The notes beneath the pieces were generated by a model. It searched no databases and had not been told where the DNA came from. It worked only from the letters and a program-made list of their open reading frames with translations. A stretch of 11,361 bases of DNA from UHGV virus genome UHGV-0806597; one strand, written 5' to 3'. Numbering within the stretch: the first letter of the stretch is position 1; the number at the start of each line of letters is the position of its first letter. Both the position numbers and the translations under genes were made by a program. This document shows, in pieces, positions 1,261-11,361 of this stretch. Origin of the DNA: a virus.

Positions 1261-1968
1261 ATGAGTGCTATGTCAGAACGCCTATTATCCACCCTCAGTG
1301 CTATCCAAGCGCGGGATGAGGTCGCTCAAGAAGTCATGGAGAAGACCTCGCCTGTGGCTGGAAAGGATTACGATCCGGATACAGGCTTGTGGTTGGGTGA
1401 AAAGCCTGTGGGGTATGAGCCTGTGGTGTTTCCTCCTTCATTGGACCCAGAAGAGCTGAAGCCCAAGGAGTCTAAGGTTCCAGACTTCGAAGACACTGAT
1501 GCCACCACCGACTACAAACGCATCCGTGACACGACTTATGCCATGCAGGAAGCCACGATGTTCATGATGGGACAGGCAGCCAAACTTGCGACGACGACTG
1601 AAGCACCCCGCGCTTTCACAGTCTTCAAGGAGTTGGGTGAACTCATGCGCGGTCTGAACAAAGACCTGATGGAGAACCAGAAAACTATCAAGGCGGTCAC
1701 GGGCGACAGAGAGCCACCTCCTGGAGACGAAACAACCGTCGAGGTCACCACGTCCCCTGATGGCACAACCACGGTCAACGTCGGTAAACAGGCCAGGTCT
1801 TCTCGTGATCTACTGAAGACCATCGAAGACGCCCGTAAACGTGCTGAAGAACGTACTGCAGCGAAAGCTGCATCCAAAGGACCTGATCCCGAAGAAGATG
1901 TAATCGACGTTCAGGCGGAGCCACAGCCGAAGGAAGAAGGTGAAGACGATGGCGTATCAGAAACGTGA
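1261..1968 (+). CDS. terminase small subunit (gp16-like) with an extended acidic C-terminus
   Basis: GGAG at 1250-1253 lies 7 nt before ATG 1261 (the ORF track starts at TTG 1255). The central region (...YKRIRDTTYAMQEATMFMMGQAAKLATTTEAPRAFTVFKELGELMRGLNKDLMENQK) matches the pattern I recall for T4 gp16. It overlaps the large terminase start by 29 nt, as genes 16/17 do in T4. Confidence 0.65.
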   Translation: MSAMSERLLSTLSAIQARDEVAQEVMEKTSPVAGKDYDPDTGLWLGEKPVGYEPVVFPPSLDPEELKPKESKVPDFEDTDATTDYKRIRDTTYAMQEATMFMMGQAAKLATTTEAPRAFTVFKELGELMRGLNKDLMENQKTIKAVTGDREPPPGDETTVEVTTSPDGTTTVNVGKQARSSRDLLKTIEDARKRAEERTAAKAASKGPDPEEDVIDVQAEPQPKEEGEDDGVSET

Positions 1969-4159
1969 TGTAGAATACGCCCCGCTCAAGACGGGGTTTA
2001 AGACAGAAGACGTCAGACTGCGTATGGACCAAACGTTCATGCGCAAGCCGTCTGTGCGCGCTCCTCGAGTGGAGTTGATGCTAACAGATGAGCAGGAATC
2101 GGAGTTCGTCGAGTGTGCGATGGACGCCCATTACTTCGCCGCCAACTACTACAAGATCACGACCATCGATAAAGGCTTCATCCTCTTTGACATGCACGAT
2201 TATCAGAAGCAGTTGTTCCATGACTTCCAGGACTATCGATTCAATGTGGTCGTCCAGGCTCGTCAGTCTGGGAAATGTGTAAAAGGTGACACGCTTGTCA
2301 CAGTTTACGATACTCTCAGCCAAGAGGAGTTGATCCTGACCATAGGGGAGCTTCACAGCCGCTTTGAGGACGTCAACCACGCTGTGCCGCTGAATACCAT
2401 TGGCAACCATGACAAGTTCGTGGACAGCCGCTTCGGCAAACGTTACTTTGTACAATCCGATAGTGGCTGGGTTCCGGTTATCGCAGCGCATAAGACGAAG
2501 AAATATGCGGAATTCGTTATTGTGACTGTTACTGGGCGGCGAATTAACGTGGCCGATGAACATATGTTCTTCACTCCGGAAATGAAGGAGATATTTGCCA
2601 AAGACCTGAATGCTGGGTCATACATCATGACGTCAGAAGGTCCAGAAGAAATCCGTGAGATTTGGCAGACTGGTGAAATGCATCACATGTATGACCTACA
2701 GGTGAAATCTAGTGATCAGCGCTACTACACCAACGGCTTCCTCAGCCACAACACGACAGTTGTGGCAGCGTTCCTGCTCTGGTATGCAATGTTCCACTCC
2801 GACAAAGAGATCGCAGTACTGGCGAACAAAGAGAAGCAGGCGATTGAAATCCTAGATCGTATTCGCAAAGCATATCAAGATTTGCCATTCTTCCTCCAAC
2901 AGGGTTGTGAGAAGTTCGGTTCCACGCTGATAGAGTTCGAAAACGGATCAAAGATCTACGCCTATGCGACATCTTCCGACTCCATCCGTGGTCGATCTGT
3001 ATCGCTCCTGTATGTGGACGAAGTGGCGTTCATCGAAAACGACTTTGAGTTCTGGGAGTCTACATTCCCGGCGATTGCATCTGCGGATACTTCACGTTGT
3101 ATCTTGACCAGTACGCCGAAAGGTCAGCGCGGGTTGTTCTACGACATCGTCACCAAGGCGAATCCAGAACATCCACAATACAACGACTTCAAACTCACAG
3201 AGGTTCCATGGTATCGTGTTCCAACATACACCAAGGATCCGAACTGGGAATCCAAACAGAGGGCGAAGCTGGGCGATGCACGTTTCGATCAAGAATTTGG
3301 CATTAAGTTCCGTGGTTCTGTAGGATCGCTGATACCTGCCAAGTGTCTAGACAAGATGACCTCGAAACTCTATCAGGAGCCGAACGAGTTCACCAAGATC
3401 TACCACGATTACGATCCGAAGCGCATCTACATGGGTATCGCCGATACAGGCAAAGGTGTGGAGGGGGATTACTCTGTTCTGACCATCTTGGATATCACAG
3501 ACTATCCTCACAAGATTGCAGCCAAGTATCGGAACAACACGATACCTCCAATGATGTACGCGTACACAATCGCCGATATGGGCGAGAAGTATGGAACGTG
3601 TCCGATGCTAGTCGAGACCAACAACGACGTGGGTGGTCAGGTAATCACAATTCTATACCAGGAAATTGAATATCCCGAGATCATATTCACTACAACAGAT
3701 ACCAAGGGTACAGGCAAGAGAATCGGTGGTCGCCGCCCTGAGCCTGGTATCAATACCAACAAGAAGGTGCGCACAAACGGCTGCGCCAACCTGAAAGCCC
3801 TGATTGAACGTGAAATGCTGGTGATAGATGACCAGGACACGATAGATGAACTCAGTACATTCGTATGGACTGGGACAAGGTATGAAGCCGATGATGGTTG
3901 TCATGATGACTGTGTAATGCCTCTTGTGCTGTATGCATGGGCGGTGAAACAAGAATGGTTTAGTGACCTCACCAACTCCAGTATCTCAGTTGACATGAGA
4001 GGACGGTTGTCTGCGATGGAAGAATCACAGATGCTACCATTTGGAGGTATGATGTCGACGCCAGATCCTCACTCTGTGGAGAACATCCCAGGGTTCGGTG
4101 GAATTCAGGTTTATGATGAACGCTCTGGTATGTCTATGGAAGAATGGCTGAGACGGTGA
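1940..4159 (+). CDS. terL: terminase large subunit (gp17-like ATPase/nuclease), 739-aa precursor containing a 159-aa mini-intein; predicted spliced product 580 aa
   Basis: With the intein removed, the Walker A reads VVQARQSGK|TTVVAAFLLW (T4: SRQLGKTTVVAIFLAHF). Walker B is LLYVDEVAFI, the coupling motif is ILTSTPKG, the nuclease motifs are IADTGKG...DYSVLTILD and HDDCVMPLVLYAW (T4: HDDLVMSLVIFGW). Collinear with T4 gp17 as I recall it. Confidence 0.95.
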   Translation: MKTMAYQKRDVEYAPLKTGFKTEDVRLRMDQTFMRKPSVRAPRVELMLTDEQESEFVECAMDAHYFAANYYKITTIDKGFILFDMHDYQKQLFHDFQDYRFNVVVQARQSGKCVKGDTLVTVYDTLSQEELILTIGELHSRFEDVNHAVPLNTIGNHDKFVDSRFGKRYFVQSDSGWVPVIAAHKTKKYAEFVIVTVTGRRINVADEHMFFTPEMKEIFAKDLNAGSYIMTSEGPEEIREIWQTGEMHHMYDLQVKSSDQRYYTNGFLSHNTTVVAAFLLWYAMFHSDKEIAVLANKEKQAIEILDRIRKAYQDLPFFLQQGCEKFGSTLIEFENGSKIYAYATSSDSIRGRSVSLLYVDEVAFIENDFEFWESTFPAIASADTSRCILTSTPKGQRGLFYDIVTKANPEHPQYNDFKLTEVPWYRVPTYTKDPNWESKQRAKLGDARFDQEFGIKFRGSVGSLIPAKCLDKMTSKLYQEPNEFTKIYHDYDPKRIYMGIADTGKGVEGDYSVLTILDITDYPHKIAAKYRNNTIPPMMYAYTIADMGEKYGTCPMLVETNNDVGGQVITILYQEIEYPEIIFTTTDTKGTGKRIGGRRPEPGINTNKKVRTNGCANLKALIEREMLVIDDQDTIDELSTFVWTGTRYEADDGCHDDCVMPLVLYAWAVKQEWFSDLTNSSISVDMRGRLSAMEESQMLPFGGMMSTPDPHSVENIPGFGGIQVYDERSGMSMEEWLRR
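2276..2752 (+). other. mini-intein (Hint domain only, no homing-endonuclease domain) inserted between Lys and Thr of the terminase Walker A motif
   Basis: Begins with Cys (CVKGDTLVTV, block A-like) and ends ...MHHMYDLQVKSSDQRYYTNGFLSHN followed by Thr at +1 (blocks F/G-like, terminal His-Asn). Excising residues 113-271 restores a canonical GKTT P-loop. At 159 aa it is too short to carry an endonuclease domain. Confidence 0.85.
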
Positions 4160-4160
4160 T

Positions 4161-4169
4161 CACTAAATA
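4161..4169 (+). promoter_or_regulatory. candidate late-promoter -10-like element CACTAAATA upstream of the tail sheath gene
   Basis: CACTAAATA lies 42 nt upstream of ATG 4212 in the terminase-sheath intergenic region. The same 9-mer recurs upstream of the scaffold gene on the - strand. It resembles the T4 late-promoter core TATAAATA. Confidence 0.35.
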
Positions 4170-4211
4170 TCTTTCAAATTGAGCGAAACTCTACAGAGAA
4201 GGAATAAGATT

Positions 4212-6107
4212 ATGGCAACTCAAAGCTTCAGCGTTGCGCCGTCCGTACAGTGGACTGAGCGTGATGCCACGCTTCAGACGTCTCCATCCGTTGTTGTTCA
4301 GGGTGCGACTGTCGGCAAATTCCAATGGGGTGAAGCAGAACTCCCTGTGTTGGTCACTGGTGGTGAAACTGGTCTGGTGAAGAAATTCTTCAAGCCAAAC
4401 GATGCAACTGCCACCGACTTCTTGGTGATTGCTGACTTCCTGTCTTACAGCTCTGTTGCATGGGTGACCCGTGTGGTCGGTCCGGCGGCACGCAACGCTG
4501 TAACCAAAGGTCAGACTGCAATCCTTATCCGCAACAAACTAGACTTCGAAACTGCGTCCCCATCTGCGTCTATTACTTGGACAGGCCGCTATGCTGGCTC
4601 TCTGGGTAACGACATTGCTGTGAACATCTGTGACGCTGCGCTGTTCCCGACCTGGGAATTCCGTAACAACTTCGCATATGCTCCGCAGGATGGCGAGTAC
4701 CACATCGCCATCGTTGACAAAGTAGGTCGCATCACCGACTCTTCTGGCGCTGTTAGTCAGGTTGATCGTATCTCTGTATCCGGTACTGCCACCGCTGCTG
4801 GTTCCATCTCTGTTGCTGGGGAAGCCGTGGCGTACACTGACGCTGACACCCCGGCGACTCTGGCGACAAAGATCGGAACTGCGCTGACGTCTCTGTCTAG
4901 CGTGTATTCTTCTGTTGTCGTGAAGTCCAACACCGTCACCGTCACTCACAAAGCAATCGGTCCTCAGGCTGCGACTGCGATTGTTCCAGACGCGAATGGC
5001 CTGACTGCTACCGCTGCCGTCACCACTGTTGGTGCTTCCGGTACGATCATCGAGAAGTATGAACTGGTGCAGACCACTCAGGGTTCTAAGAAATCTGATG
5101 GATCCAATGCGTACTTCAAAGACGTGATCAACAGCACCTCAAATTGGGTGTACACCTTCGCCACTACCCTGGCTGCTGGTGTCATTGAACTCGAAGGTGG
5201 TGTAGACGATTACACTGGGAACCGTGTTGCGGCTATCCAGGCACTGAACAACGCCGAAGCGTATGATGCCAAGCCAGTGTTCGGTTTCTGTGAAGAACTG
5301 ATTGAGCAGCAGGCACTGATCGACCTGTCCACTGAGCGTAAAGACACAGTGTCCTTCGTGTCTCCTCTTCGCGATGCGGTCGTCGGAAACCGTGGCCGTG
5401 AGATGGAAGATGTTGTGGCCTGGCGTGAAAGCCTTGTTCGCGACTCCTCCTACTTCTTCATGGATGACAACTGGGCGTATGTGTACGACAAGTACAACGA
5501 CAAAATGCGTTGGATTCCGGCTTGTGGTGGCACCGCAGGTGTTTGGGCGCGAAGCATTGAAATCGCGGGTATCTACAAATCTCCGGCGTTCCACAACCGT
5601 GGTAAATACAACAACTATAATCGAATGGCGTGGTCTGCGTCTTCTGATGAGCGTGCTGTGCTATATCGCAACCAGATCAACAGCATCGTCACCTTCTCCA
5701 ACGAAGGCATCGTGTTGTACGGCGACAAGACTGGCCTGACCCGCCCATCTGCGTTCGACCGCATCAACGTTCGTGGTCTGTTCATTATGGCAGAACAGAA
5801 CATCGCAGCCATCGCCAAATACTACCTTGGTGAGAACAACGATGCATTCACTCGTGGGTTGTTCAGCAACGCTGTCCGCCCATATATCCGCCAGTTGGCC
5901 AACATGGGCGCGATCTATGACGGGATGGTGAAGTGTGACGAGGACAACAACACTGCGGAAGTTATCGCTGCGAACCAGATGGTCGCGGGTATTTGGCTCA
6001 AGCCGGAATACTCAATAAATTGGATATTTTTAGATTTCGCCGCCGTCCGCCCAGACATGGAGTTCTCCGAGATCGAATCCGGTGGTGGTATCGTTGCAGC
6101 CTCCTAA
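4212..6107 (+). CDS. contractile tail sheath protein (gp18-like)
   Basis: AAGGA lies 8 nt before ATG 4212 (the ORF track starts at in-frame TTG 4179). VGKFQWGEAE near the N-terminus matches T4 AGKFQWGPAF. The C-terminal block DKYNDKMRWIP...VLYGDKTGLTRPSAFDRINVRGLF...NNDAFTRGLF...SINWIFLDFAAV is collinear with T4 gp18 (DKYNDVNRWVP...VLYGDKT...PFDRINVRRLF...NNAFTRSSF...SINYITLNFVA). Confidence 0.9.
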   Translation: MATQSFSVAPSVQWTERDATLQTSPSVVVQGATVGKFQWGEAELPVLVTGGETGLVKKFFKPNDATATDFLVIADFLSYSSVAWVTRVVGPAARNAVTKGQTAILIRNKLDFETASPSASITWTGRYAGSLGNDIAVNICDAALFPTWEFRNNFAYAPQDGEYHIAIVDKVGRITDSSGAVSQVDRISVSGTATAAGSISVAGEAVAYTDADTPATLATKIGTALTSLSSVYSSVVVKSNTVTVTHKAIGPQAATAIVPDANGLTATAAVTTVGASGTIIEKYELVQTTQGSKKSDGSNAYFKDVINSTSNWVYTFATTLAAGVIELEGGVDDYTGNRVAAIQALNNAEAYDAKPVFGFCEELIEQQALIDLSTERKDTVSFVSPLRDAVVGNRGREMEDVVAWRESLVRDSSYFFMDDNWAYVYDKYNDKMRWIPACGGTAGVWARSIEIAGIYKSPAFHNRGKYNNYNRMAWSASSDERAVLYRNQINSIVTFSNEGIVLYGDKTGLTRPSAFDRINVRGLFIMAEQNIAAIAKYYLGENNDAFTRGLFSNAVRPYIRQLANMGAIYDGMVKCDEDNNTAEVIAANQMVAGIWLKPEYSINWIFLDFAAVRPDMEFSEIESGGGIVAAS

Positions 6108-6186: not shown

Positions 6187-6885
6187 ATGATCGGAAGTGT
6201 TTACAAAATTACAAATCTAGTCAATCAGAAAGCCTATATCGGTATCACCACAAGAGACCCAAGCCATAGGTGGTGGGAACATTGTAACAGCGCTCGAAAT
6301 GGTTCCGACTACGGTATCCATCAAGCTATTCGCAAGCACGGTGAAGAATCATTCTCGTTCCAAGTGATTGCCCAGACCAAGTCCATAAAAGATCTTAAAG
6401 AATTAGAGATCATCCTGATCAAGCAGCATGACACCCACATGTCAACTCAGAAAGGGTACAACAAAACTTGGGGCGGTGATGGTGCAACATTCACTGGCAA
6501 GACCGGCGCTATTGATGCATCGACCGGAGAGCGTATCGGCCTCGTAGACTGTGATGACCCTAGATGGTCGACAGGAGAGATAATACACTGCAAGGTCGGG
6601 GTCAAGCGTTCTTTCTCAAAGAGCCTGTCTGAATTCGCCAAAGCAAGAACCGGATCCAAGAACTCCAACGCCAAGCGATTCAAATTAGTATCTCCTTCCG
6701 GCGAAGAACACGAAATCCACGGGAACTGTCGTGAATATGTGGAGAGGTTGGGACTTAAATATTCAGCACTCTATGATTACATCGACAAGGGTATTCCAGT
6801 TCCACCACCGTCTGTGTATCATAGGAAAACTGCGACCGCAGAGCGTTTGAATACGACGGGTTGGCAGCTAATTAGAATTGTGTAA
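6187..6885 (+). CDS. free-standing GIY-YIG homing endonuclease (Seg / I-TevI-like)
   Basis: The N-terminus GSVYKITNLVNQKAYIGITTRDPSHRWWEH...IHQAIRKHGEESFSF...LKELEIILIKQH...YN has the GIY-(10-11 aa)-YIG spacing and the conserved Arg, Glu and Asn of the GIY-YIG fold. The C-terminal region (CDD...HCKVG; EHEIHGNCREYVERLGLKYSALYDYI) looks like a DNA-binding extension. It is inserted between the sheath and tube genes and has only a weak RBS. Confidence 0.85.
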   Translation: MIGSVYKITNLVNQKAYIGITTRDPSHRWWEHCNSARNGSDYGIHQAIRKHGEESFSFQVIAQTKSIKDLKELEIILIKQHDTHMSTQKGYNKTWGGDGATFTGKTGAIDASTGERIGLVDCDDPRWSTGEIIHCKVGVKRSFSKSLSEFAKARTGSKNSNAKRFKLVSPSGEEHEIHGNCREYVERLGLKYSALYDYIDKGIPVPPPSVYHRKTATAERLNTTGWQLIRIV

Positions 6886-6905: not shown

Positions 6906-7439
6906 ATGGCTACAGTTAATGAATTCAGAGCAGCTATGTCACGCGGGGGCGGCGTTCAGCGCCAACACCGTTGGCGTGTAACTGTTAACTTCCCTTCCTT
7001 CGTGGCTGGAAGCGATACTATCCGTGATGTTTCGCTGTTGGCAGTGACCACAAATACCCCAACAGGCCAGCTCGGGGAAATACTCGTCCCATGGGGTGGT
7101 CGTGAACTTCCATTCCCAGGTGACCGCCGCTTCGAGGCTCTGCCTGTGACGTTCATCAACGTCGTGGACAACGCCCCGTATAACGCATTCGAAGTCTGGC
7201 AGCAGTATATCAACGGCAGCAACAACAACCGTGCGTCTGCTAACCCAGATGATTATTTCCGTGATGTAATCATGGAACTGCTGGATGCGAATGACAACGT
7301 CACCAAGACTTGGACCCTTCAGGGCACCTGGCCTCAGAACCTCGGTCAGCTGGAACTGGACATGTCTGCAATGGACTCTTATACTCAGTTCACTGTTGAC
7401 CTGCGTTACTTCCAGGCCATCTCAGACAAGTCTCTCTAA
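6906..7439 (+). CDS. tail tube protein (gp19-like)
   Basis: GGAGA lies 7 nt before ATG 6906. The C-terminal TWTLQGTWPQNLGQLELDMSAMDSYTQFTVDLRYF parallels T4 gp19 IEIKGLWPTNVGELQLDWDSNNEIQTFEVTLALDYWE as I recall it. Position between sheath and portal genes is as in T4. Confidence 0.85.
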   Translation: MATVNEFRAAMSRGGGVQRQHRWRVTVNFPSFVAGSDTIRDVSLLAVTTNTPTGQLGEILVPWGGRELPFPGDRRFEALPVTFINVVDNAPYNAFEVWQQYINGSNNNRASANPDDYFRDVIMELLDANDNVTKTWTLQGTWPQNLGQLELDMSAMDSYTQFTVDLRYFQAISDKSL

Positions 7440-7440
7440 T

Positions 7441-7498
7441 GTCCTCAGTGCTGGGGGATCTTATTCCCCCTCACTAATTACAAGAAAATGTTGAGGAC
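7441..7498 (+). promoter_or_regulatory. nested hairpin in the tube-portal intergenic region; the outer stem overlaps the portal Shine-Dalgarno
   Basis: Inner stem GGGGGA (7453-7458) pairs with TCCCCC (7465-7470) around a 6-nt loop. Outer stem GTCCTCA (7441-7447) pairs with TGAGGAC (7492-7498), which contains the GAGGA SD of the portal ATG at 7505. Confidence 0.3.
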
Positions 7499-7504
7499 TT
7501 AATC

Positions 7505-8317
7505 ATGGCATTCGGTAATGGTGCATTCGGAAATGGGTTCTTCGGCCTGTTCGGTAGAGGCGGCAAAGTAGAAGCGCCGATTGATACCGACAAGATGGTC
7601 ACGAACCAAGAAGAGAAGTTGCTTTCAAAAGCGACTGTTGTTGCGCTGGACGATTCTCAGGATGGTTCCATCATCCTCCAGGGCGGCGCGAACACATTCA
7701 ATTTCGTTGGTGTTGAGAATGAGTTGCTCAACGTCAAACAGCTGGTCGAAGAGTACCAGTCTATGGCTCAGCAGCCTGAGATTCGTAAGGCTGTGGATAT
7801 CATTGTCAACGATATCGTCACCTGTGAAGAGGATGAGACTCCTGTAACCATCAACCTGGAAAAGGTAGATGGCATCACAAACGAAGTCAAAGAAAAGATC
7901 ACTGACGCATTCAAAGAGATCATGCATCTCCTTGACTTTGACAACACGGCGTATCAGAAGATCCGCAAATGGTATATTGAAGGCCGTCAGGCATTCCACG
8001 TTGTAGTGGACCCGAAGAACAAGAAAGCGGGTATCGCCAAACTCATCATGATGGACTCACGCTGTATCCGCCCAGTGTACATCGTTCAAAAGGCGATGCG
8101 CGACGGTATCGAAGTCATCAATGACGTAAAACTTCAATACTACTACAACCCGAACTACAACCGCAACCAATTCACTGGCCAGTCCGGAACGTCTCAGAAC
8201 TTCCAACCGTCACAGCAAGAGCTGGTGTTTGATGATGAGAGCATAGTGTATCTGGACAGTGGTGAAGAGCCTCTGGCGAATGGGGTTGTGCCAAGCCTGC
8301 CGAAGCGACGATTATAG
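7505..8317 (+). CDS. portal protein (gp20-like), N-terminal fragment only (~265 native residues, then 5 foreign residues PKRRL and a stop)
   Basis: NTAYQKIRKWYIEGRQAFHVVVDPKNKKAGIAKL matches T4 gp20 [32 protein letters not shown] as I recall it. The frame ends 17 nt past the inverted-repeat boundary at 8300; the rest of the portal is on the - strand at 10386-11361. Confidence 0.85.
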   Translation: MAFGNGAFGNGFFGLFGRGGKVEAPIDTDKMVTNQEEKLLSKATVVALDDSQDGSIILQGGANTFNFVGVENELLNVKQLVEEYQSMAQQPEIRKAVDIIVNDIVTCEEDETPVTINLEKVDGITNEVKEKITDAFKEIMHLLDFDNTAYQKIRKWYIEGRQAFHVVVDPKNKKAGIAKLIMMDSRCIRPVYIVQKAMRDGIEVINDVKLQYYYNPNYNRNQFTGQSGTSQNFQPSQQELVFDDESIVYLDSGEEPLANGVVPSLPKRRL

Positions 8318-9138
8318 TCGGCCAACTGACGCTTGATAGATTCTTTCAGCTCTTTGTCTGTTTCATCTTCATCGTCATCTTCATCGCCTTCTTTCTTAGG
8401 CTTTTTGCCTTCGGCTTTAACATCTTTGTTGTCGTCATCGCCGTCTTTACCGCCGACTTTGTCCTGGAAGTCATCGTCATCGTCATCACCTTCTTTCTTC
8501 ACGGACTTACCTTCTACCAGGTTGCGGAAGGTGTGTACGCGGGAAGCGAATTCGCTTTCGGTGGTGAACTGCACAGCTTCCAGCAGATTGACAACCGTTG
8601 CTTTCTTGGTGTCGACCATACCTTCACAGACACGGGCGATCACAGAGTCACGCAGAGTCGCATTCGCGGCTTCTTTGATTTGACGGTTTTCGCTTTCGGC
8701 AATCGCAGCACGTCGTTCTGCTTCGGTCAGGCGGGCAGTCAGCGCAGCGATCTGGCCGTTTTCGTCGGTGGCAAAGTTAATACCAGCTTCTTTCAGAACA
8801 CCAGTCAGGCCAGTCAGCAGATTTTCAGCCGCTTCACGTTTGATCTGAGCATCGATTGCAGGAGCGTTCTTGTTAGCCCACTCTTCTACAACAGCATTCA
8901 GGAAGCCATCGACTTTGGTCGCGATTTCCATCAAGTGAGACTCTTTCAGCTGAGCAATCTCAGCCTGATGAGCTTCAACCAGACGCAGGCGCTCAATATT
9001 GGCAGCGTTTTCGGTTTCTTGAATAGCGGTCAGGCGAGCGGCTTCTACTTTAGATTCCAGCAGACCAGACACTTTATCCAGGAAGTCGGTGCTGAGGCCG
9101 TTAACGCCCTCAAACAGTTTTTGCAATTCAGGTTTCAT
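8194..9138 (-). CDS. prohead core scaffold protein (gp22-like); the C-terminal ~36 codons run antisense through the portal fragment and are probably not native
   Basis: AAGGAAA lies 6 nt before ATG (9138-9136). The protein is highly charged and helical-looking with a poly-Asp/Glu tract (EGDDDDDDFQD...GDEDDDEDETDKE). It follows the protease gene as gp22 follows gp21 in T4. After ...KRQLADYNRR the frame crosses the repeat junction at 8300/8301 and gives unrelated sequence (FGRLGTTPFARGSSPL...). Confidence 0.7.
   Translation of the reverse strand: MKPELQKLFEGVNGLSTDFLDKVSGLLESKVEAARLTAIQETENAANIERLRLVEAHQAEIAQLKESHLMEIATKVDGFLNAVVEEWANKNAPAIDAQIKREAAENLLTGLTGVLKEAGINFATDENGQIAALTARLTEAERRAAIAESENRQIKEAANATLRDSVIARVCEGMVDTKKATVVNLLEAVQFTTESEFASRVHTFRNLVEGKSVKKEGDDDDDDFQDKVGGKDGDDDNKDVKAEGKKPKKEGDEDDDEDETDKELKESIKRQLADYNRRFGRLGTTPFARGSSPLSRYTMLSSSNTSSCCDGWKF
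8224..8300 (+). repeat. left arm of a 77-bp perfect inverted repeat (portal codons ...VFDDESIVYLDSGEEPLANGVVPSL)
   Basis: Base-by-base comparison: 8224-8300 equals the reverse complement of 11285-11361 at every position. Identity ends at 8301 (c, versus t expected). Confidence 0.95.
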
Positions 9139-9165
9139 GATTGTTTCCTTCTGAACGATTTTCAG

Positions 9166-9174
9166 TATTTAGTG
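9166..9174 (-). promoter_or_regulatory. candidate late-promoter -10-like element CACTAAATA upstream of the scaffold gene
   Basis: The - strand reads CACTAAATACTGAAAATCGTTCAGAAGGAAACAATCATG, placing the 9-mer 27 nt upstream of the scaffold ATG. It is identical to the 9-mer upstream of the sheath gene. Confidence 0.35.
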
Positions 9175-9183
9175 AGGCTGAAT

Positions 9184-9852
9184 TCAGCCCAGATGTTTCA
9201 ATGCGATATCGAGGCGGCGCAGGAAGTCGTCTTCTAACTGAATATTGGTTTTCACCAATGAATCGACCACATGCCCCTTAATGTCCTTAGGAACCCAAAT
9301 TCCTGAAGATTCATCAAGCTGCCATTCCACAGATTCGCTCACAGCCTTTACATAACAAACTTGTCCAGAAGGACGGTCGACTGCATCAACAGCAGTGAGC
9401 ATAAAGCCGGGTTGAACGTCATCATAGCCGTTCACTGACTTGGTCTCACCAAGGCCACGTGTAGACACGGCCAGGTTGAAGTCTGCTTCAGCCAGAGCAC
9501 GAATGATCTGACCTTTCGGTGTATTCAGGATCCGCGCTCGACCGATAGCGTTGGTGCCTTCCCAGCGCAAAGATTCGGTTTTGAGTGCAGCGTGTTCGAT
9601 ATCGGGGAAAGGATAATCCGGATGCTTGAGTTCACCGATTGCACGACGATCCTGGATATACTCTTTGTCGTATGCTTCGACAGCAGGGATACCCACCTTT
9701 TGGAGATCGTAGTTGCGACCATTACGGTTCACCTGGTTACACATCACGAATGGACCTTCGATGTACATGGCTTTGCCGCCAGTAGCCGTGGCCGCTTCAC
9801 CAATCTGAAGGTCTTTCCCTATCGCAGTGATCTCACGCAACAGTTTCATCAT
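9184..9852 (-). CDS. prohead protease (gp21-like)
   Basis: AAGGAG precedes tandem ATGs at 9852 and 9849; the second has the better spacing. Motifs GELKHPD and LAVSTRGLG match what I recall of the T4 gp21 / prohead-protease family. Position between gp68-like and scaffold genes is as in T4. Confidence 0.8.
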   Translation of the reverse strand: MMKLLREITAIGKDLQIGEAATATGGKAMYIEGPFVMCNQVNRNGRNYDLQKVGIPAVEAYDKEYIQDRRAIGELKHPDYPFPDIEHAALKTESLRWEGTNAIGRARILNTPKGQIIRALAEADFNLAVSTRGLGETKSVNGYDDVQPGFMLTAVDAVDRPSGQVCYVKAVSESVEWQLDESSGIWVPKDIKGHVVDSLVKTNIQLEDDFLRRLDIALKHLG

Positions 9853-10385: not shown

Positions 10386-11361
10386 TTATTCTTCACCACC
10401 AGGAGGGTTAGTCGCTGGGATGACGTTAGGTCTGAATTTCAGTGGACTGACTTCCCCGCTGCCGAAGCCGCCGGACTCATCTGCCTGTACTTCAGGATAT
10501 TTGCCTTCTTTCTTCTCTTTCGCGATCTTCTCTTGCTGGTCTTTGATGTCTTCATCGGACATACGCAGCAAATTGCGTTGAGCAAAATCGATAGAGAAGA
10601 GAGTGCCGATATATGGTTCGATCTGACCGAGAGCCGCCATACGCTGTGACAAGATTTCGTTCTCTTGTTGTTCACGGATGAAGCTGTCAGAAGTGAATTC
10701 GAACTTGACGAACGGCTTGATCTTCTCATTCCAGTCAGCCTGATCTGTAATGCCTTTCAATATCAGCTGACGGCGCAGAAGTTCCAGGAAAATACCAGAA
10801 GAATAACGACGGCGCAGGCTCGCACAGAACTTGTTGAAGCGCAATTCTTCCTGTGTGATTTCAGCAAGATTGGAACCACCGATGTTGATGGAACCTTCCT
10901 CTTGCAGGCGGCTCTTAGGGATCATCAGAGCCTCGTAGAGCTTCTCGCGGAAGTATACCACATGATCCATTTGACCCAGTTGATCGCCACCGCCTACGTT
11001 GGAGATCTCGGTTGCGTTCTGCCCTTCGCGACGTGGTAGCCAGTAGTCCTCAGCGATACCCATCAAATGAGTGTTACCAGCCACCTTACCAGTGGTGCGA
11101 TCATACGCCAGACGGTTCTTGAATTTGCCCATCATGGCTTGCATGTATTCTTCGGCCGACTTCTTACCCAGCGTACCCACGTCGAGATAGAACGCTCGCT
11201 TCTCAGGAGCACGTGTGATCGCATAGATTACCGTTGCATCTTCAGTTGTAACAAGGTTGTTCAGGGGACGGATAGCCGGGTTCAGCAGGCTTGGCACAAC
11301 CCCATTCGCCAGAGGCTCTTCACCACTGTCCAGATACACTATGCTCTCATCATCAAACACC
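10386..11361 (-). CDS. portal protein (gp20-like), C-terminal portion; 5' end runs off the window
   Basis: ATVIYAITRAPEKRAFYLDVGTL...NRLAYDRTTGKV...EDYWLPRREGQNATE...LILKGITDQADWNEKI is collinear with T4 gp20 [23 protein letters not shown]...NRVVYDASTGKI...EDYWLQRRDGKAVTE...LLLKGIITEDEWNDEI as I recall it. The first 25 codons in the window are the inverted-repeat copy of the end of the + strand portal fragment. The 'M' at 11360 in the ORF track is just a GTG at the window edge. Confidence 0.85.
   Translation of the reverse strand, partial: VFDDESIVYLDSGEEPLANGVVPSLLNPAIRPLNNLVTTEDATVIYAITRAPEKRAFYLDVGTLGKKSAEEYMQAMMGKFKNRLAYDRTTGKVAGNTHLMGIAEDYWLPRREGQNATEISNVGGGDQLGQMDHVVYFREKLYEALMIPKSRLQEEGSINIGGSNLAEITQEELRFNKFCASLRRRYSSGIFLELLRRQLILKGITDQADWNEKIKPFVKFEFTSDSFIREQQENEILSQRMAALGQIEPYIGTLFSIDFAQRNLLRMSDEDIKDQQEKIAKEKKEGKYPEVQADESGGFGSGEVSPLKFRPNVIPATNPPGGEE
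11285..11361 (-). repeat. right arm of the 77-bp perfect inverted repeat (truncated by the window end, may be longer)
   Basis: The reverse complement of 11285-11361 is identical to 8224-8300. The match is still perfect at the last base of the window. Confidence 0.95.

What the first reader, a model, noticed from the sequence alone, without database searches (positions are those of the whole stretch)
7441..7504. Nested hairpin between tube and portal genes that could occlude the portal ribosome-binding site
A strong inner hairpin (GGGGGA/TCCCCC, 6-nt loop) is enclosed by an outer 7-bp stem (GTCCTCA/TGAGGAC) whose 3' strand includes the GAGGA Shine-Dalgarno of the portal gene. This could act as a terminator or processing site after the tube gene and also reduce portal translation, consistent with the low copy number of portal relative to tube protein.
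Basis: seen in the sequence. Interest (0 to 1): 0.35.

Follow-up and report, generated by a model that had tools for sequence, protein, structure and literature searches.

The report
Ribosome-site-masking hairpin before phage portal gene

Summary
GTCCTCA (7441-7447) pairs with TGAGGAC (7492-7498), which holds the portal Shine-Dalgarno (SD) sequence. This stem encloses the hairpin GGGGGA/TCCCCC (7453-7470). The fold is -24.3 kcal/mol, z = -3.3.

It is a one-mismatch copy of the family's late-promoter motif TCACTAAATA. That motif sits exactly upstream of the sheath and scaffold genes in this window, and at this same spot in more distant relatives.

The best reading is a T4 gene-e-type module.
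- A stem-loop follows the tube gene. It has no U-tract here but is a canonical terminator in three distant relatives.
- An internal late promoter follows the stem-loop.
- An anti-SD arm masks the portal ribosome site only on RNAs that read through from the tube gene.

The SD is predicted fully paired in read-through RNA and about 70% free in promoter-started RNA in one of three tested contexts. In the closest complete genome, the portal SD is the 6th most masked of 140.

SD pairing is kept in four lineages, with compensatory changes in the Erwinia phages, and lost in Klebsiella phages. T4 has the hairpin and promoter but no masking stem.

Nothing is experimentally shown. I rate this a new member of a known kind, of modest interest.

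The parts
6906..7439 (+). Tail tube gene (gp19-like, 177 aa). The stop codon TAA is at 7437-7439.
   Evidence: PHROG 45 tail tube, E = 4e-57. It is 100% identical to the ZQ1 tail tube protein.
7430..7438 (+). Alternative anti-SD segment GUCUCUCUA, covering the last tube codons and the stop codon. It can pair with 7492-7498 in some flanking contexts.
   Evidence: It appears as the partner of 7492-7498 in the minimum-free-energy folds of two of the five read-through contexts (7400-7540 and 7300-7650).
7441..7447 (+). 5' arm of the outer stem (anti-SD), GUCCUCA. It starts 1 nt after the tube stop codon.
   Evidence: Sequence. Paired to 7492-7498 in the minimum-free-energy fold. An in-silico arm mutant frees the SD.
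7447..7475 (+). Inner stem-loop: AGUG/CACU plus GGGGGA/UCCCCC, with the loop UCUUAU (7459-7464). It resembles a terminator or a 3'-end protecting hairpin, but no U-tract follows it.
   Evidence: Every lineage has a hairpin at this position with a different stem sequence: GGGGAGG/CCUCCCC, AGCGGGGA/UCCCCGCU, GUGGUGGGGGAA/UUUCCCCACCAC. Three distant relatives have canonical terminators here: Vibrio K469, the SD25-type Vibrio phage and L032. T4 has AUGGGGA-GAAA-UCCCCAU.
7471..7480 (+). Late-promoter-like element TCACTAATTA (core CTAATTA, 7474-7480). It lies inside the loop closed by the outer stem.
   Evidence: It is one mismatch from TCACTAAATA. That motif is exact upstream of the sheath gene (4160-4169, + strand) and the scaffold gene (9166-9175, - strand) in this window. 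It is also exact at this same intergenic position in Serratia, Erwinia and Vibrio relatives. The scaffold copy is annotated 'putative late promoter' in LIMEstone1. CTAAATA sites in ZQ1 lie upstream of genes in at least 12 of 18 cases, against 16% background. CTAATTA also precedes the major capsid gene.
7486..7486 (+). Inferred start of the late transcript. By analogy with T4, it is placed 6 nt after the promoter element. The resulting leader of about 19 nt lacks all anti-SD segments.
   Evidence: This is inference from T4 late-promoter geometry, not mapped. The short RNA has its SD 0.68 unpaired when it ends at the ATG. When coding sequence is added, the values are 0.43, 0.01 and 0.48 for ends at 7540, 7600 and 7650.
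7492..7498 (+). 3' arm of the outer stem, UGAGGAC. It contains the portal Shine-Dalgarno GAGGA (7493-7497), with a 7-nt spacer to the start codon.
7505..8304 (+). Portal gene (gp20-like), 5' part only. The window is rearranged after 8304.
   Evidence: PHROG 213 and Pfam Portal_T4. Collinear with ZQ1 up to 8304.

Best explanation
The tube-portal gap is a compound control module of the kind known from T4 genes e, soc, 49 and I-TevI. It has three parts.

1. A G+C-rich stem-loop follows the tube stop codon. It marks or protects the 3' end of tube mRNA. Without a U-tract it would let much transcription read through.
2. A gp55-type late promoter (CTAATTA, a CTAAATA variant) sits just after the stem-loop. 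It would start a short-leader portal mRNA near 7486.
3. The pyrimidine arm GUCCUCA lies upstream of the hairpin, with back-ups at 7430-7438 and 7466-7473. It pairs with the portal SD only on RNAs that come through from the heavily expressed sheath and tube genes.

On this model, portal synthesis is uncoupled from those abundant transcripts and set mainly by its own promoter. A ribosome terminating at the tube stop codon would cover the 5' arm, so some leak-through coupling is also expected.

Shown here: the sequence elements, the predicted pairing and its rank within a genome, motif placement, and conservation with partial covariation.

Inferred: promoter activity, the transcript start, read-through, and any effect on translation.
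For: Structure and SD masking:
- Fold of -24.3 kcal/mol, z = -3.27.
- P(SD unpaired) is about 0 in read-through RNA of Aglimvirinae, Kuttervirus, Erwinia Ea2809/Bue1 and Serratia Miltonvirus. It is 0.3-0.8 in RNA started after the promoter motif.
- Masking is robust to flanking context, and the arm mutant frees the SD.
- The portal SD ranks 6th of 140 genes in ZQ1.

Promoter:
- TCACTAAATA is exact upstream of sheath and scaffold in the window.
- It is exact at the tube-portal gap in Serratia, Erwinia and Vibrio relatives.
- The LIMEstone1 record annotates the scaffold copy as a putative late promoter.
- CTAAATA is strongly biased to positions just upstream of genes.
- Variants at the fifth base precede the major capsid gene: CTAATTA in ZQ1 and CTAAGTA in LIMEstone1.
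- CTAAATAcCcc is a published family motif (PMC7283392).
- ZQ1 encodes gp55 and gp33.

Same logic elsewhere in the genome:
- Several of the most masked ribosome sites in ZQ1 have the anti-SD directly abutting a late-promoter motif. The endolysin gene is one of them. This parallels T4 gene e (PMC3014915).

Evolution:
- The gap is more conserved than the flanking genes.
- Ea2809 has GAUCCUCU/AGAGGAUC, with G-C to A-U and A-U to U-A changes.
- Miltonvirus has UUCCUCA/UGAGGAA flanking only the promoter.
- T4 has the hairpin plus an exact TATAAATA between genes 19 and 20.
Against: - There are no transcript or translation data for any Ackermannviridae phage in the searchable library.
- The promoter core here carries a mismatch (CTAATTA). 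The LIMEstone1 authors annotated neither a promoter nor a terminator in this gap.
- CTAATTA is not over-represented in the genome. It occurs 8 times against roughly 18 expected by my own uniform-base-frequency arithmetic, which no tool computed.
- SD masking is absent in Klebsiella Taipeivirus phages and in IME250 (P unpaired 0.8). It is weak in Vibrio K469 and absent in T4.
- Independent compensatory events are few. The alignment-based covariation score does not beat all slid controls: 0.134 against 0.136 at slide -3.
- In one coding context (7486-7600) the short transcript also has its SD paired, 0.01 unpaired.
- Tube translation would itself open the outer stem, so read-through RNAs may not be silent.
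Confidence: 0.45

Rival explanations
1. The main purpose is translational coupling by unmasking. The closing helix starts 0-4 nt after the tube stop codon and ends at or next to the portal ribosome site. It masks the site until a ribosome finishing the tube gene melts the 5' arm. The helix also places the stop codon physically next to the portal start. Portal would then be made at a small fixed fraction of tube.
For: - The 5' arm at 7441-7447 lies within the roughly 12-15 nt that a ribosome with UAA 7437-7439 in its A site covers. This reach is established ribosome-footprint knowledge, not tested here.
- A closing helix beginning at or beside the stop codon exists in every enterobacterial lineage examined. 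This includes those where the SD itself is free: Klebsiella and IME250 have UAACGUU/AACGUUG, created by matching U-to-C changes on both strands. Miltonvirus has AUGG(U)/(A)CCAU reaching the start codon. Ea2809 has a helix that includes the last A of UAA.
- The back-up anti-SD at 7430-7438 lies inside the last tube codons.
Against: - The gap is so short that any arm placed upstream of the hairpin must lie near the stop codon. The adjacency is therefore not independent evidence.
- In Miltonvirus the real anti-SD arm lies 29 nt after the stop codon, beyond a terminating ribosome's reach.
- A conserved promoter motif inside the loop is unnecessary for pure coupling.
- Vibrio relatives and T4 have no closing helix.
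Confidence: 0.25
2. Only the inner hairpin is functional, as a weak terminator or a 3'-end stabiliser for tube mRNA, followed by a promoter as in T4. The outer stem is incidental complementarity between a purine-rich SD and pyrimidine-rich neighbouring sequence. It persists mainly by descent among close relatives.
For: - T4 and Vibrio relatives have the hairpin and promoter without an outer stem.
- Klebsiella phages lack SD pairing.
- 14.6% of upstream shuffles already give P(SD unpaired) < 0.05, because the region is C/U-rich.
- Most of the paired cells in the alignment come from closely related sequences.
Against: - Compensatory changes on both flanks of the invariant CCUC/GAGG core occur in Ea2809. 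Miltonvirus has a matched pair change, G-C to U-A, at a relocated arm.
- The non-coding 5' arm is conserved between subfamilies whose coding DNA is 67-81% identical.
- The portal SD is in the top 4% for masking within the genome.
- The family demonstrably places anti-SD arms next to late promoters at other genes.
Confidence: 0.2
3. The stacked helices (6 + 4 + 6 bp, with small internal loops) form an RNA processing site of the RNase III or RNase E type. Cleavage would separate tube mRNA from portal mRNA.
For: - The structure is a quasi-continuous 16-bp irregular helix followed by an A/U-rich single strand at 7476-7491.
- Klebsiella phages have a perfect 12-bp inner stem.
Against: - No Rfam family matches the region.
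- The helix is shorter than typical RNase III substrates.
- Nothing in the sequence data specifically supports cleavage.
- This reading would not explain why the 3' arm is the SD.
Confidence: 0.05

Closest known systems
T4 gene e (lysozyme), soc, 49 and I-TevI inhibitory leader structures (reviewed in PMC3014915)
   Same: The SD is locked in a helix on transcripts that start upstream. A T4-type late promoter is placed so that late transcripts lack the 5' strand. The phage has gp55/gp33-type late transcription.
   Different: In T4 the late promoter overlaps or abuts the 5' strand, and the control is temporal: early RNA is silent and late RNA is active. Here the promoter lies in the loop, about 27 nt downstream of the 5' arm, with a separate hairpin nested inside. 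The upstream gene is itself late, so the effect would be on stoichiometry rather than timing. None of this is tested experimentally.
T4 gene 19-gene 20 intergenic region
   Same: It is the same junction (tube to portal) with the same order of elements: stop codon, G-rich hairpin (AUGGGGA-GAAA-UCCCCAU, close to Ea2809's GCGGGGA-GAAA-UCCCCGC), late promoter (an exact TATAAATA), SD, then ATG.
   Different: T4 has no arm upstream of the hairpin that pairs with the SD. The outer stem is an addition found in some Ackermannviridae lineages.
Aeh1 mobE and T4 segB hairpins that sequester homing-endonuclease ribosome sites (cited in PMC3014915)
   Same: An RNA hairpin hides the ribosome site of a gene embedded in a highly transcribed region.
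   Different: Those hairpins regulate selfish endonuclease genes. Here the target is an essential structural gene.
Ackermannviridae motif CTAAATAcCcc (PMC7283392)
   Same: The late-promoter core is the same. In ZQ1 the trailing CCCC pairs with a GGGG-type SD downstream at the tail spike gene, the tail fibre gene and other genes.
   Different: At the portal gene the core is CTAATTA, it is followed by CAAG rather than CCCC, and the anti-SD lies upstream of the promoter.
Translational coupling through masked ribosome sites (for example the MS2 coat-replicase long-range pairing)
   Same: The downstream ribosome site is paired with sequence that the upstream ribosome must traverse or cover.
   Different: This comparison rests on my own knowledge only. 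In MS2 the masking sequence lies inside the upstream coding region, and there is no internal promoter.

Membership tests
T4-type ribosome-site-sequestering leader with internal late promoter (gene e / soc / 49 / I-TevI class) | The SD and/or start codon is base-paired in the longer, upstream-initiated transcript | tested here: met
   In silico only. The minimum-free-energy fold pairs 7493-7498 with 7441-7446. P(SD unpaired) is 0.0006 in the intergenic RNA and at most 0.08 in longer contexts.
T4-type ribosome-site-sequestering leader with internal late promoter (gene e / soc / 49 / I-TevI class) | A late promoter is positioned so that late transcripts lack the 5' strand of the helix | tested here: inconclusive
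   TCACTAATTA at 7471-7480 lies between the arms and is one mismatch from the family motif. The exact motif occupies the same site in Serratia, Erwinia and Vibrio relatives. Variants at the fifth base precede the capsid gene. Promoter activity and the transcript start are not mapped.
T4-type ribosome-site-sequestering leader with internal late promoter (gene e / soc / 49 / I-TevI class) | The phage uses a gp55/gp33-type late transcription apparatus | tested here: met
   The closest complete relative, ZQ1 (98.7% identical here), is annotated with Gp55 sigma factor, Gp33 and a sliding clamp. These genes are not inside the window itself.
T4-type ribosome-site-sequestering leader with internal late promoter (gene e / soc / 49 / I-TevI class) | Translation from the long transcript is reduced relative to the short one | not testable with these tools
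   This needs reporter fusions or ribosome profiling.
Intrinsic (factor-independent) terminator | A G+C-rich stem-loop | tested here: met
   GGGGGA/UCCCCC extended by AGUG/CACU.
Intrinsic (factor-independent) terminator | A U-rich tract immediately after the stem | tested here: not met
   The stem is followed by UCACUAAU, with 3 U in 8. The terminator scan did not list this hairpin. The feature is met in Vibrio K469 (UUUUUGUUUGUU), the SD25-type Vibrio phage and L032.
Translational coupling by ribosome-dependent unmasking | The masking strand lies within reach of a ribosome translating or terminating the upstream gene | tested here: met
   The 5' arm at 7441-7447 starts 1 nt after the stop codon at 7437-7439. 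The back-up arm at 7430-7438 lies within the last codons. The ribosome's reach is taken from general knowledge.
Translational coupling by ribosome-dependent unmasking | Downstream translation depends on upstream translation | not testable with these tools
   This needs experiments with a premature stop codon or a moved stop codon.
Any curated RNA family (Rfam 15) | A covariance-model match over the region | tested here: not met
   There is no match at 7400-7520 even at E <= 1.

The most novel reading that the evidence does not exclude
The closing helix could be a selected dual-mode device. It loops out a terminator-promoter cassette and places the tube stop codon directly against the portal ribosome site. 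Portal would then be made in two ways. The first is a steady amount from its own weak late promoter. The second is a ratio-locked trickle each time a ribosome finishes a tube protein. On this view, different lineages have rebuilt the helix with different sequences and registers: SD-masking in Aglimvirinae, Kuttervirus and Erwinia phages; SD-adjacent in Klebsiella phages; start-codon-reaching in Serratia phages. This would be a compact RNA solution to the stoichiometry problem, which is about 12 portal to about 138 tube subunits in T4 (figures from general knowledge, not tested here).
Probability: 0.2. Interest if true: 0.5.

Novelty: new member of a known kind. Interest (0 to 1): 0.3.

Why it matters
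Phage assembly needs very different amounts of neighbouring gene products. In T4, from general knowledge, a virion has about a dozen portal subunits against more than a hundred tube and sheath subunits. How Vi1-like phages set these ratios is unstudied, although they are widely used for biocontrol of Salmonella, E. coli O157, Klebsiella and Dickeya.

If the model holds, one 65-nt element combines three functions: transcript 3'-end formation, an internal promoter, and transcript-specific masking of a ribosome site. It would extend the T4 gene-e principle from timing control to stoichiometry control of an essential structural gene.

It also gives a practical warning. Engineering or refactoring these phages around the tube-portal junction, or inserting cargo there as homing endonucleases do in some relatives, could change portal dosage.

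Tried and rejected
- Rfam scan at a permissive threshold: nothing in the region.
- Metagenome scan for more diverse relatives: only 2 loci, both near-identical.
- IMG/VR scans: almost only known isolates.
- Literature searches for Ackermannviridae transcript maps or RNA-seq: nothing usable.
- One search failed on a too-short term.
- MAFFT alignment of the gaps misplaces the Serratia rows and the inner hairpin of Ea2809. The formal pair count is therefore reliable only for the outer stem of the Ea2809 row and for the close relatives. I tabulated the lineage-specific helices from per-sequence folds instead.
- RegB cleavage site: rejected, because the SD is GAGGA with no GGAG.
- Minus-strand feature: rejected, because no ORF or motif lies on that strand here.
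- Mini-ORF ATG-TTG-AGG-ACT-TAA (7488-7502): rejected as functional. It has no SD of its own, and its ATG is lost in Klebsiella phages and in Se-B.
- sigma-70 promoter: the scan's best hit (7357-7385) lies inside the tube gene, and the number of hits does not exceed the shuffles.
- One script call produced nothing. Searches failed on trivial errors and were repeated.

Full report
**1. What is there**

The window is the packaging, tail and head module of an Ackermannviridae (Vi1-like) phage. It is 98-99% identical over the tube-portal region to Escherichia phages vB_EcoM-ZQ1 and AV101 and related isolates. ORF 6906-7439 is the tail tube gene, and ORF 7505 onward is the T4-type portal gene.

The 65-nt gap between them reads: TAA-U-GUCCUCA-GUGCU-GGGGGA-UCUUAU-UCCCCC-UCACUAAUUACAAGAAAAUGU-UGAGGAC-UUAAUC-AUG.

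The inner helix is extended by AGUG (7447-7450) pairing with CACU (7472-7475). The 3' arm of the outer stem contains the portal Shine-Dalgarno (SD) sequence GAGGA, 7 nt before the ATG.

**2. Is it more than chance?**

- The 77-nt RNA folds into exactly this nested structure at -24.3 kcal/mol. Shuffles average -15.4 +/- 2.7, giving z = -3.27, and 1 of 200 shuffles folds as well.
- The SD is predicted unpaired with probability 0.0006 in the intergenic RNA. It stays at or below 0.08 in read-through contexts of 141-551 nt. In two of the five read-through contexts the pairing partner switches to a second pyrimidine segment, GUCUCUCUA at 7430-7438.
- Changing the 5' arm in silico raises SD accessibility to 0.67. 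Only 3.6% of 500 shuffles of the upstream part reach P < 0.01.
- As an internal control I folded the -80 to +20 region of all 140 ZQ1 genes with a recognisable SD. The portal SD ranks 6th (0.003; median 0.35). The capsid and scaffold genes rank 111th and 113th.

**3.

TCACTAATTA lies between the hairpin and the SD, at 7471-7480. The exact decamer TCACTAAATA occurs twice in the window. Both copies are in gaps directly upstream of late genes, and each follows a small palindrome. One is at 4160-4169 before the sheath gene, and the other is at 9166-9175 on the minus strand before the scaffold gene.

Several results support reading this motif as the family's late promoter.
- The scaffold copy is annotated 'putative late promoter' in the LIMEstone1 GenBank record. 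That record's paper reports 33 late promoters predicted by similarity to T4 (PMC3296691).
- CTAAATAcCcc is cited as a family-specific regulatory motif (PMC7283392).
- In the ZQ1 genome, at least 12 of 18 CTAAATA sites have a gene start 8-70 nt downstream. The background rate is 16%.
- The fifth base of the motif varies at sites that are clearly upstream of genes. CTAATTA precedes the major capsid gene in ZQ1, and CTAAGTA occupies the same place in LIMEstone1.
- At the tube-portal gap itself, the more distant Serratia (Miltonvirus), Erwinia (Ea2809, Bue1) and Vibrio (K469) phages carry the exact TCACTAAATA.
- ZQ1 encodes Gp55 and Gp33, the T4-type late sigma factor and its co-activator.
- T4 has the same layout between genes 19 and 20: stop codon, hairpin AUGGGGA-GAAA-UCCCCAU, an exact TATAAATA, GGAG, then ATG.

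By T4 geometry, a late transcript would start about 6 nt after the element, near 7486. It would therefore lack every anti-SD segment. This start position is my inference and has not been mapped.

**4. Comparative evidence**

I recovered about 18 distinct versions of the gap and folded each one.

| Lineage | Outer or closing helix | SD state in read-through RNA |
|---|---|---|
| Aglimvirinae (the window, ZQ1, LIMEstone1, P46FS4, YEP3) | GUCCUC(A/G)/UGAGGAC | paired (P unpaired about 0) |
| Kuttervirus (Vi01 and others) | GUCCUC(A/G)/UGAGGAC | paired (about 0) |
| Erwinia phages Ea2809 and Bue1 | AGAUCCUCU/AGAGGAUCU, 9 bp | paired (about 0) |
| Serratia Miltonvirus | UUCCUCA/UGAGGAA; the 5' arm lies after the hairpin and abuts the promoter | paired (0.01) |
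| Klebsiella Taipeivirus and Serratia IME250 | UAACGUU/AACGUUG, shifted about 6 nt | free (about 0.8) |
| Vibrio K469 | none; canonical U-tract terminator plus TCACTAAATA | partly free (0.36) |
| T4 | none | not computed |

- In the Erwinia helix, both positions flanking the invariant CCUC/GAGG core are changed in a compensatory way: G-C to A-U, and A-U to U-A.
- In Miltonvirus the flanking pair changes again, to U-A.
- In Klebsiella phages the 5' arm is GUUACAC and does not pair with the SD. The shifted helix was made by matching U-to-C changes on both strands.

The inner hairpin is present everywhere, but with different stem sequences. The gap is 94% identical between the window and Vi01, while the tube gene is 81% identical and the first 300 nt of the portal gene are 67% identical.

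The formal pair count on the MAFFT alignment gives 87.9% paired cells, against 49-66% for slid controls. The covariation score is 0.134, which does not exceed every slid control (0.136 at slide -3). The genuine two-sided changes come from the single Ea2809 lineage. Covariation support is therefore real but thin.

**5. The same logic elsewhere in the genome**

Several of the most masked ribosome sites in ZQ1 have an anti-SD directly abutting a late-promoter motif.
- TATAAATA-UCCUCGC...GCGAGGA
- The endolysin gene: TTTAAATA-CCUCUACA...UGUGGAGG
- gp14: CTAAATA-CCUUCAA...UUGAGGG
- Tail spike and tail fibre genes: CTAAATA-CCCC...GGGGU

These appear. With a start 6 nt after the element, the late RNA would lack the anti-SD. 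This is the documented T4 gene e, soc, 49 and I-TevI arrangement (PMC3014915). The family therefore appears to use transcript-specific ribosome-site masking routinely, which raises the prior for the portal case.

**6. Mechanism**

Best explanation (confidence about 0.45): the gap is a three-part module. It consists of a stem-loop after the tube gene, an internal late promoter, and an anti-SD arm that silences the portal ribosome site only on read-through RNA from the abundant sheath and tube transcripts. The stem-loop has lost its U-tract in the enterobacterial lineages, so read-through is plausible.

Main rival (about 0.25): ribosome-dependent unmasking, that is, translational coupling. The 5' arm begins 1 nt after the stop codon, so a terminating ribosome must cover it. 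A closing helix next to the stop codon is the one feature shared by all enterobacterial lineages. The two ideas are compatible.

Other rivals: the outer stem is incidental (about 0.2), or the structure is a processing site (about 0.05).

All functional steps are inferred. I found no transcript or expression data.

**7. Comparison and novelty**

It works like the T4 gene-e class. Membership is only partly testable here.
- SD pairing: met in silico.
- Late transcription machinery: met in the nearest relative.
- Promoter placement: inconclusive, a one-mismatch motif without a mapped start.
- Effect on translation: untestable with these tools.

It is not a canonical intrinsic terminator, because the U-tract test fails here. 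It matches no Rfam family.

It differs from the T4 cases in three ways. It has a nested architecture, with the promoter in the loop and the arm upstream of a separate hairpin. It acts between two late genes, so the effect would be on stoichiometry rather than timing. Its 5' arm lies next to a stop codon.

My verdict is a new member of a known kind, of modest interest (0.3).

**8. Caveat about the window**

The window is not a faithful genome segment. After 8304 it continues as the reverse complement of the downstream head genes, bounded by 81-nt inverted arms. It also carries three single-base indels relative to ZQ1 that break the gp14 and gp15 reading frames. The finding itself is unaffected. 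An independent metagenome contig (L040) has the identical gap in a normal, collinear context.

Noticed in passing
window 8224-8304 and 11281-11361; segment 8298-11361: The window is rearranged. The portal gene is cut at 8304. The sequence then continues as the reverse complement of scaffold, prohead protease, core protein, a small ORF and the portal 3' part. This segment corresponds to ZQ1 locus positions 11383 back to 8320. It is bounded by 81-nt, 99% complementary inverted arms, and the second arm ends exactly at the window end. An independent metagenome contig (L040) is collinear and normal. This looks like a fold-back assembly or read artefact rather than biology.
   Followed up: yes
window ~70, 1009, 1013: There are three single-base indels relative to ZQ1: one deletion and two insertions. 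They break the gp14 neck protein frame and the gp15 sheath-stabiliser frame. The ORF 561-1088 stops early and continues in another frame to 1258. These are probably sequencing or assembly errors.
   Followed up: partly
window 1940-4159, about residues 113-270 of the product: The large terminase is about 125 aa longer than T4 gp17. An insertion right after the Walker A motif (…QSGK|CVKGDTLV…FLSHN|T…) looks like a mini-intein. Pfam Intein_splicing scores E = 5.5e-7, which is below its gathering cut-off. Relatives have the same protein length (ZQ1, Vi01).
   Followed up: partly
window 6187-6885: A free-standing GIY-YIG homing endonuclease gene lies between the sheath and tube genes. At this spot ZQ1 and LIMEstone1 instead carry a large endonuclease on the opposite strand. 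Vi01, YEP3 and pSal-SNUABM-02 carry GIY-YIG genes. The tube gene here is preceded by CAGCTAATTA, where ZQ1 has CTAAATA.
   Followed up: partly
ZQ1 genome (L048-L050): genes at 14-1909, 2009-5131, 26304-26471, 83844-84638, 122949-123677, 141787-142437: The published family motif CTAAATAcCcc is more than a promoter. The bases right after TAAATA (CCCC, CCUC or CCUUC) pair with a GGGG- or GAGG-type SD 10-25 nt downstream. This gives the most strongly masked ribosome sites in the genome, including the endolysin site, which parallels T4 gene e. I found no paper describing this pairing in the held library.
   Followed up: partly
L046 (Dickeya phage JA15) 815-1040: JA15 has a direct duplication of about 127 bp. 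It starts inside the 5' side of the inner hairpin and runs through the promoter motif, the SD and the first ~38 portal codons. The result is a 38-aa annotated ORF followed by a second complete portal start.
   Followed up: no
window 7488-7502: A mini-ORF, ATG-TTG-AGG-ACT-TAA, overlaps the portal SD and ends 2 nt before the portal ATG. Its ATG is lost in Klebsiella phages and in Kuttervirus Se-B, so it is probably not functional.
   Followed up: partly
window 9130-9215 (minus strand) and 4120-4215: The scaffold gene is preceded by the palindrome GGCTGAATTCAGCC, then TCACTAAATA, then a second hairpin CUGAA-AAUCG-UUCAG that ends at the SD. The sheath gene is preceded by GTGATCAC overlapping TCACTAAATA. 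'Hairpin then TCACTAAATA' therefore appears to be a recurring cassette in this module.
   Followed up: partly
L027 (Ralstonia phage RSP15), L029/L030 (SD25-type Vibrio phage), L047 (Klebsiella phage TTM-TASP117): The tube-portal junction, or the portal 5' end, is a repeated insertion site for homing endonuclease genes in distant relatives. RSP15 has an endonuclease gene between tube and portal. The SD25-type Vibrio phage has one on the opposite strand right after the tube terminator. TASP117 has an opposite-strand ORF inside the portal region.
   Followed up: no
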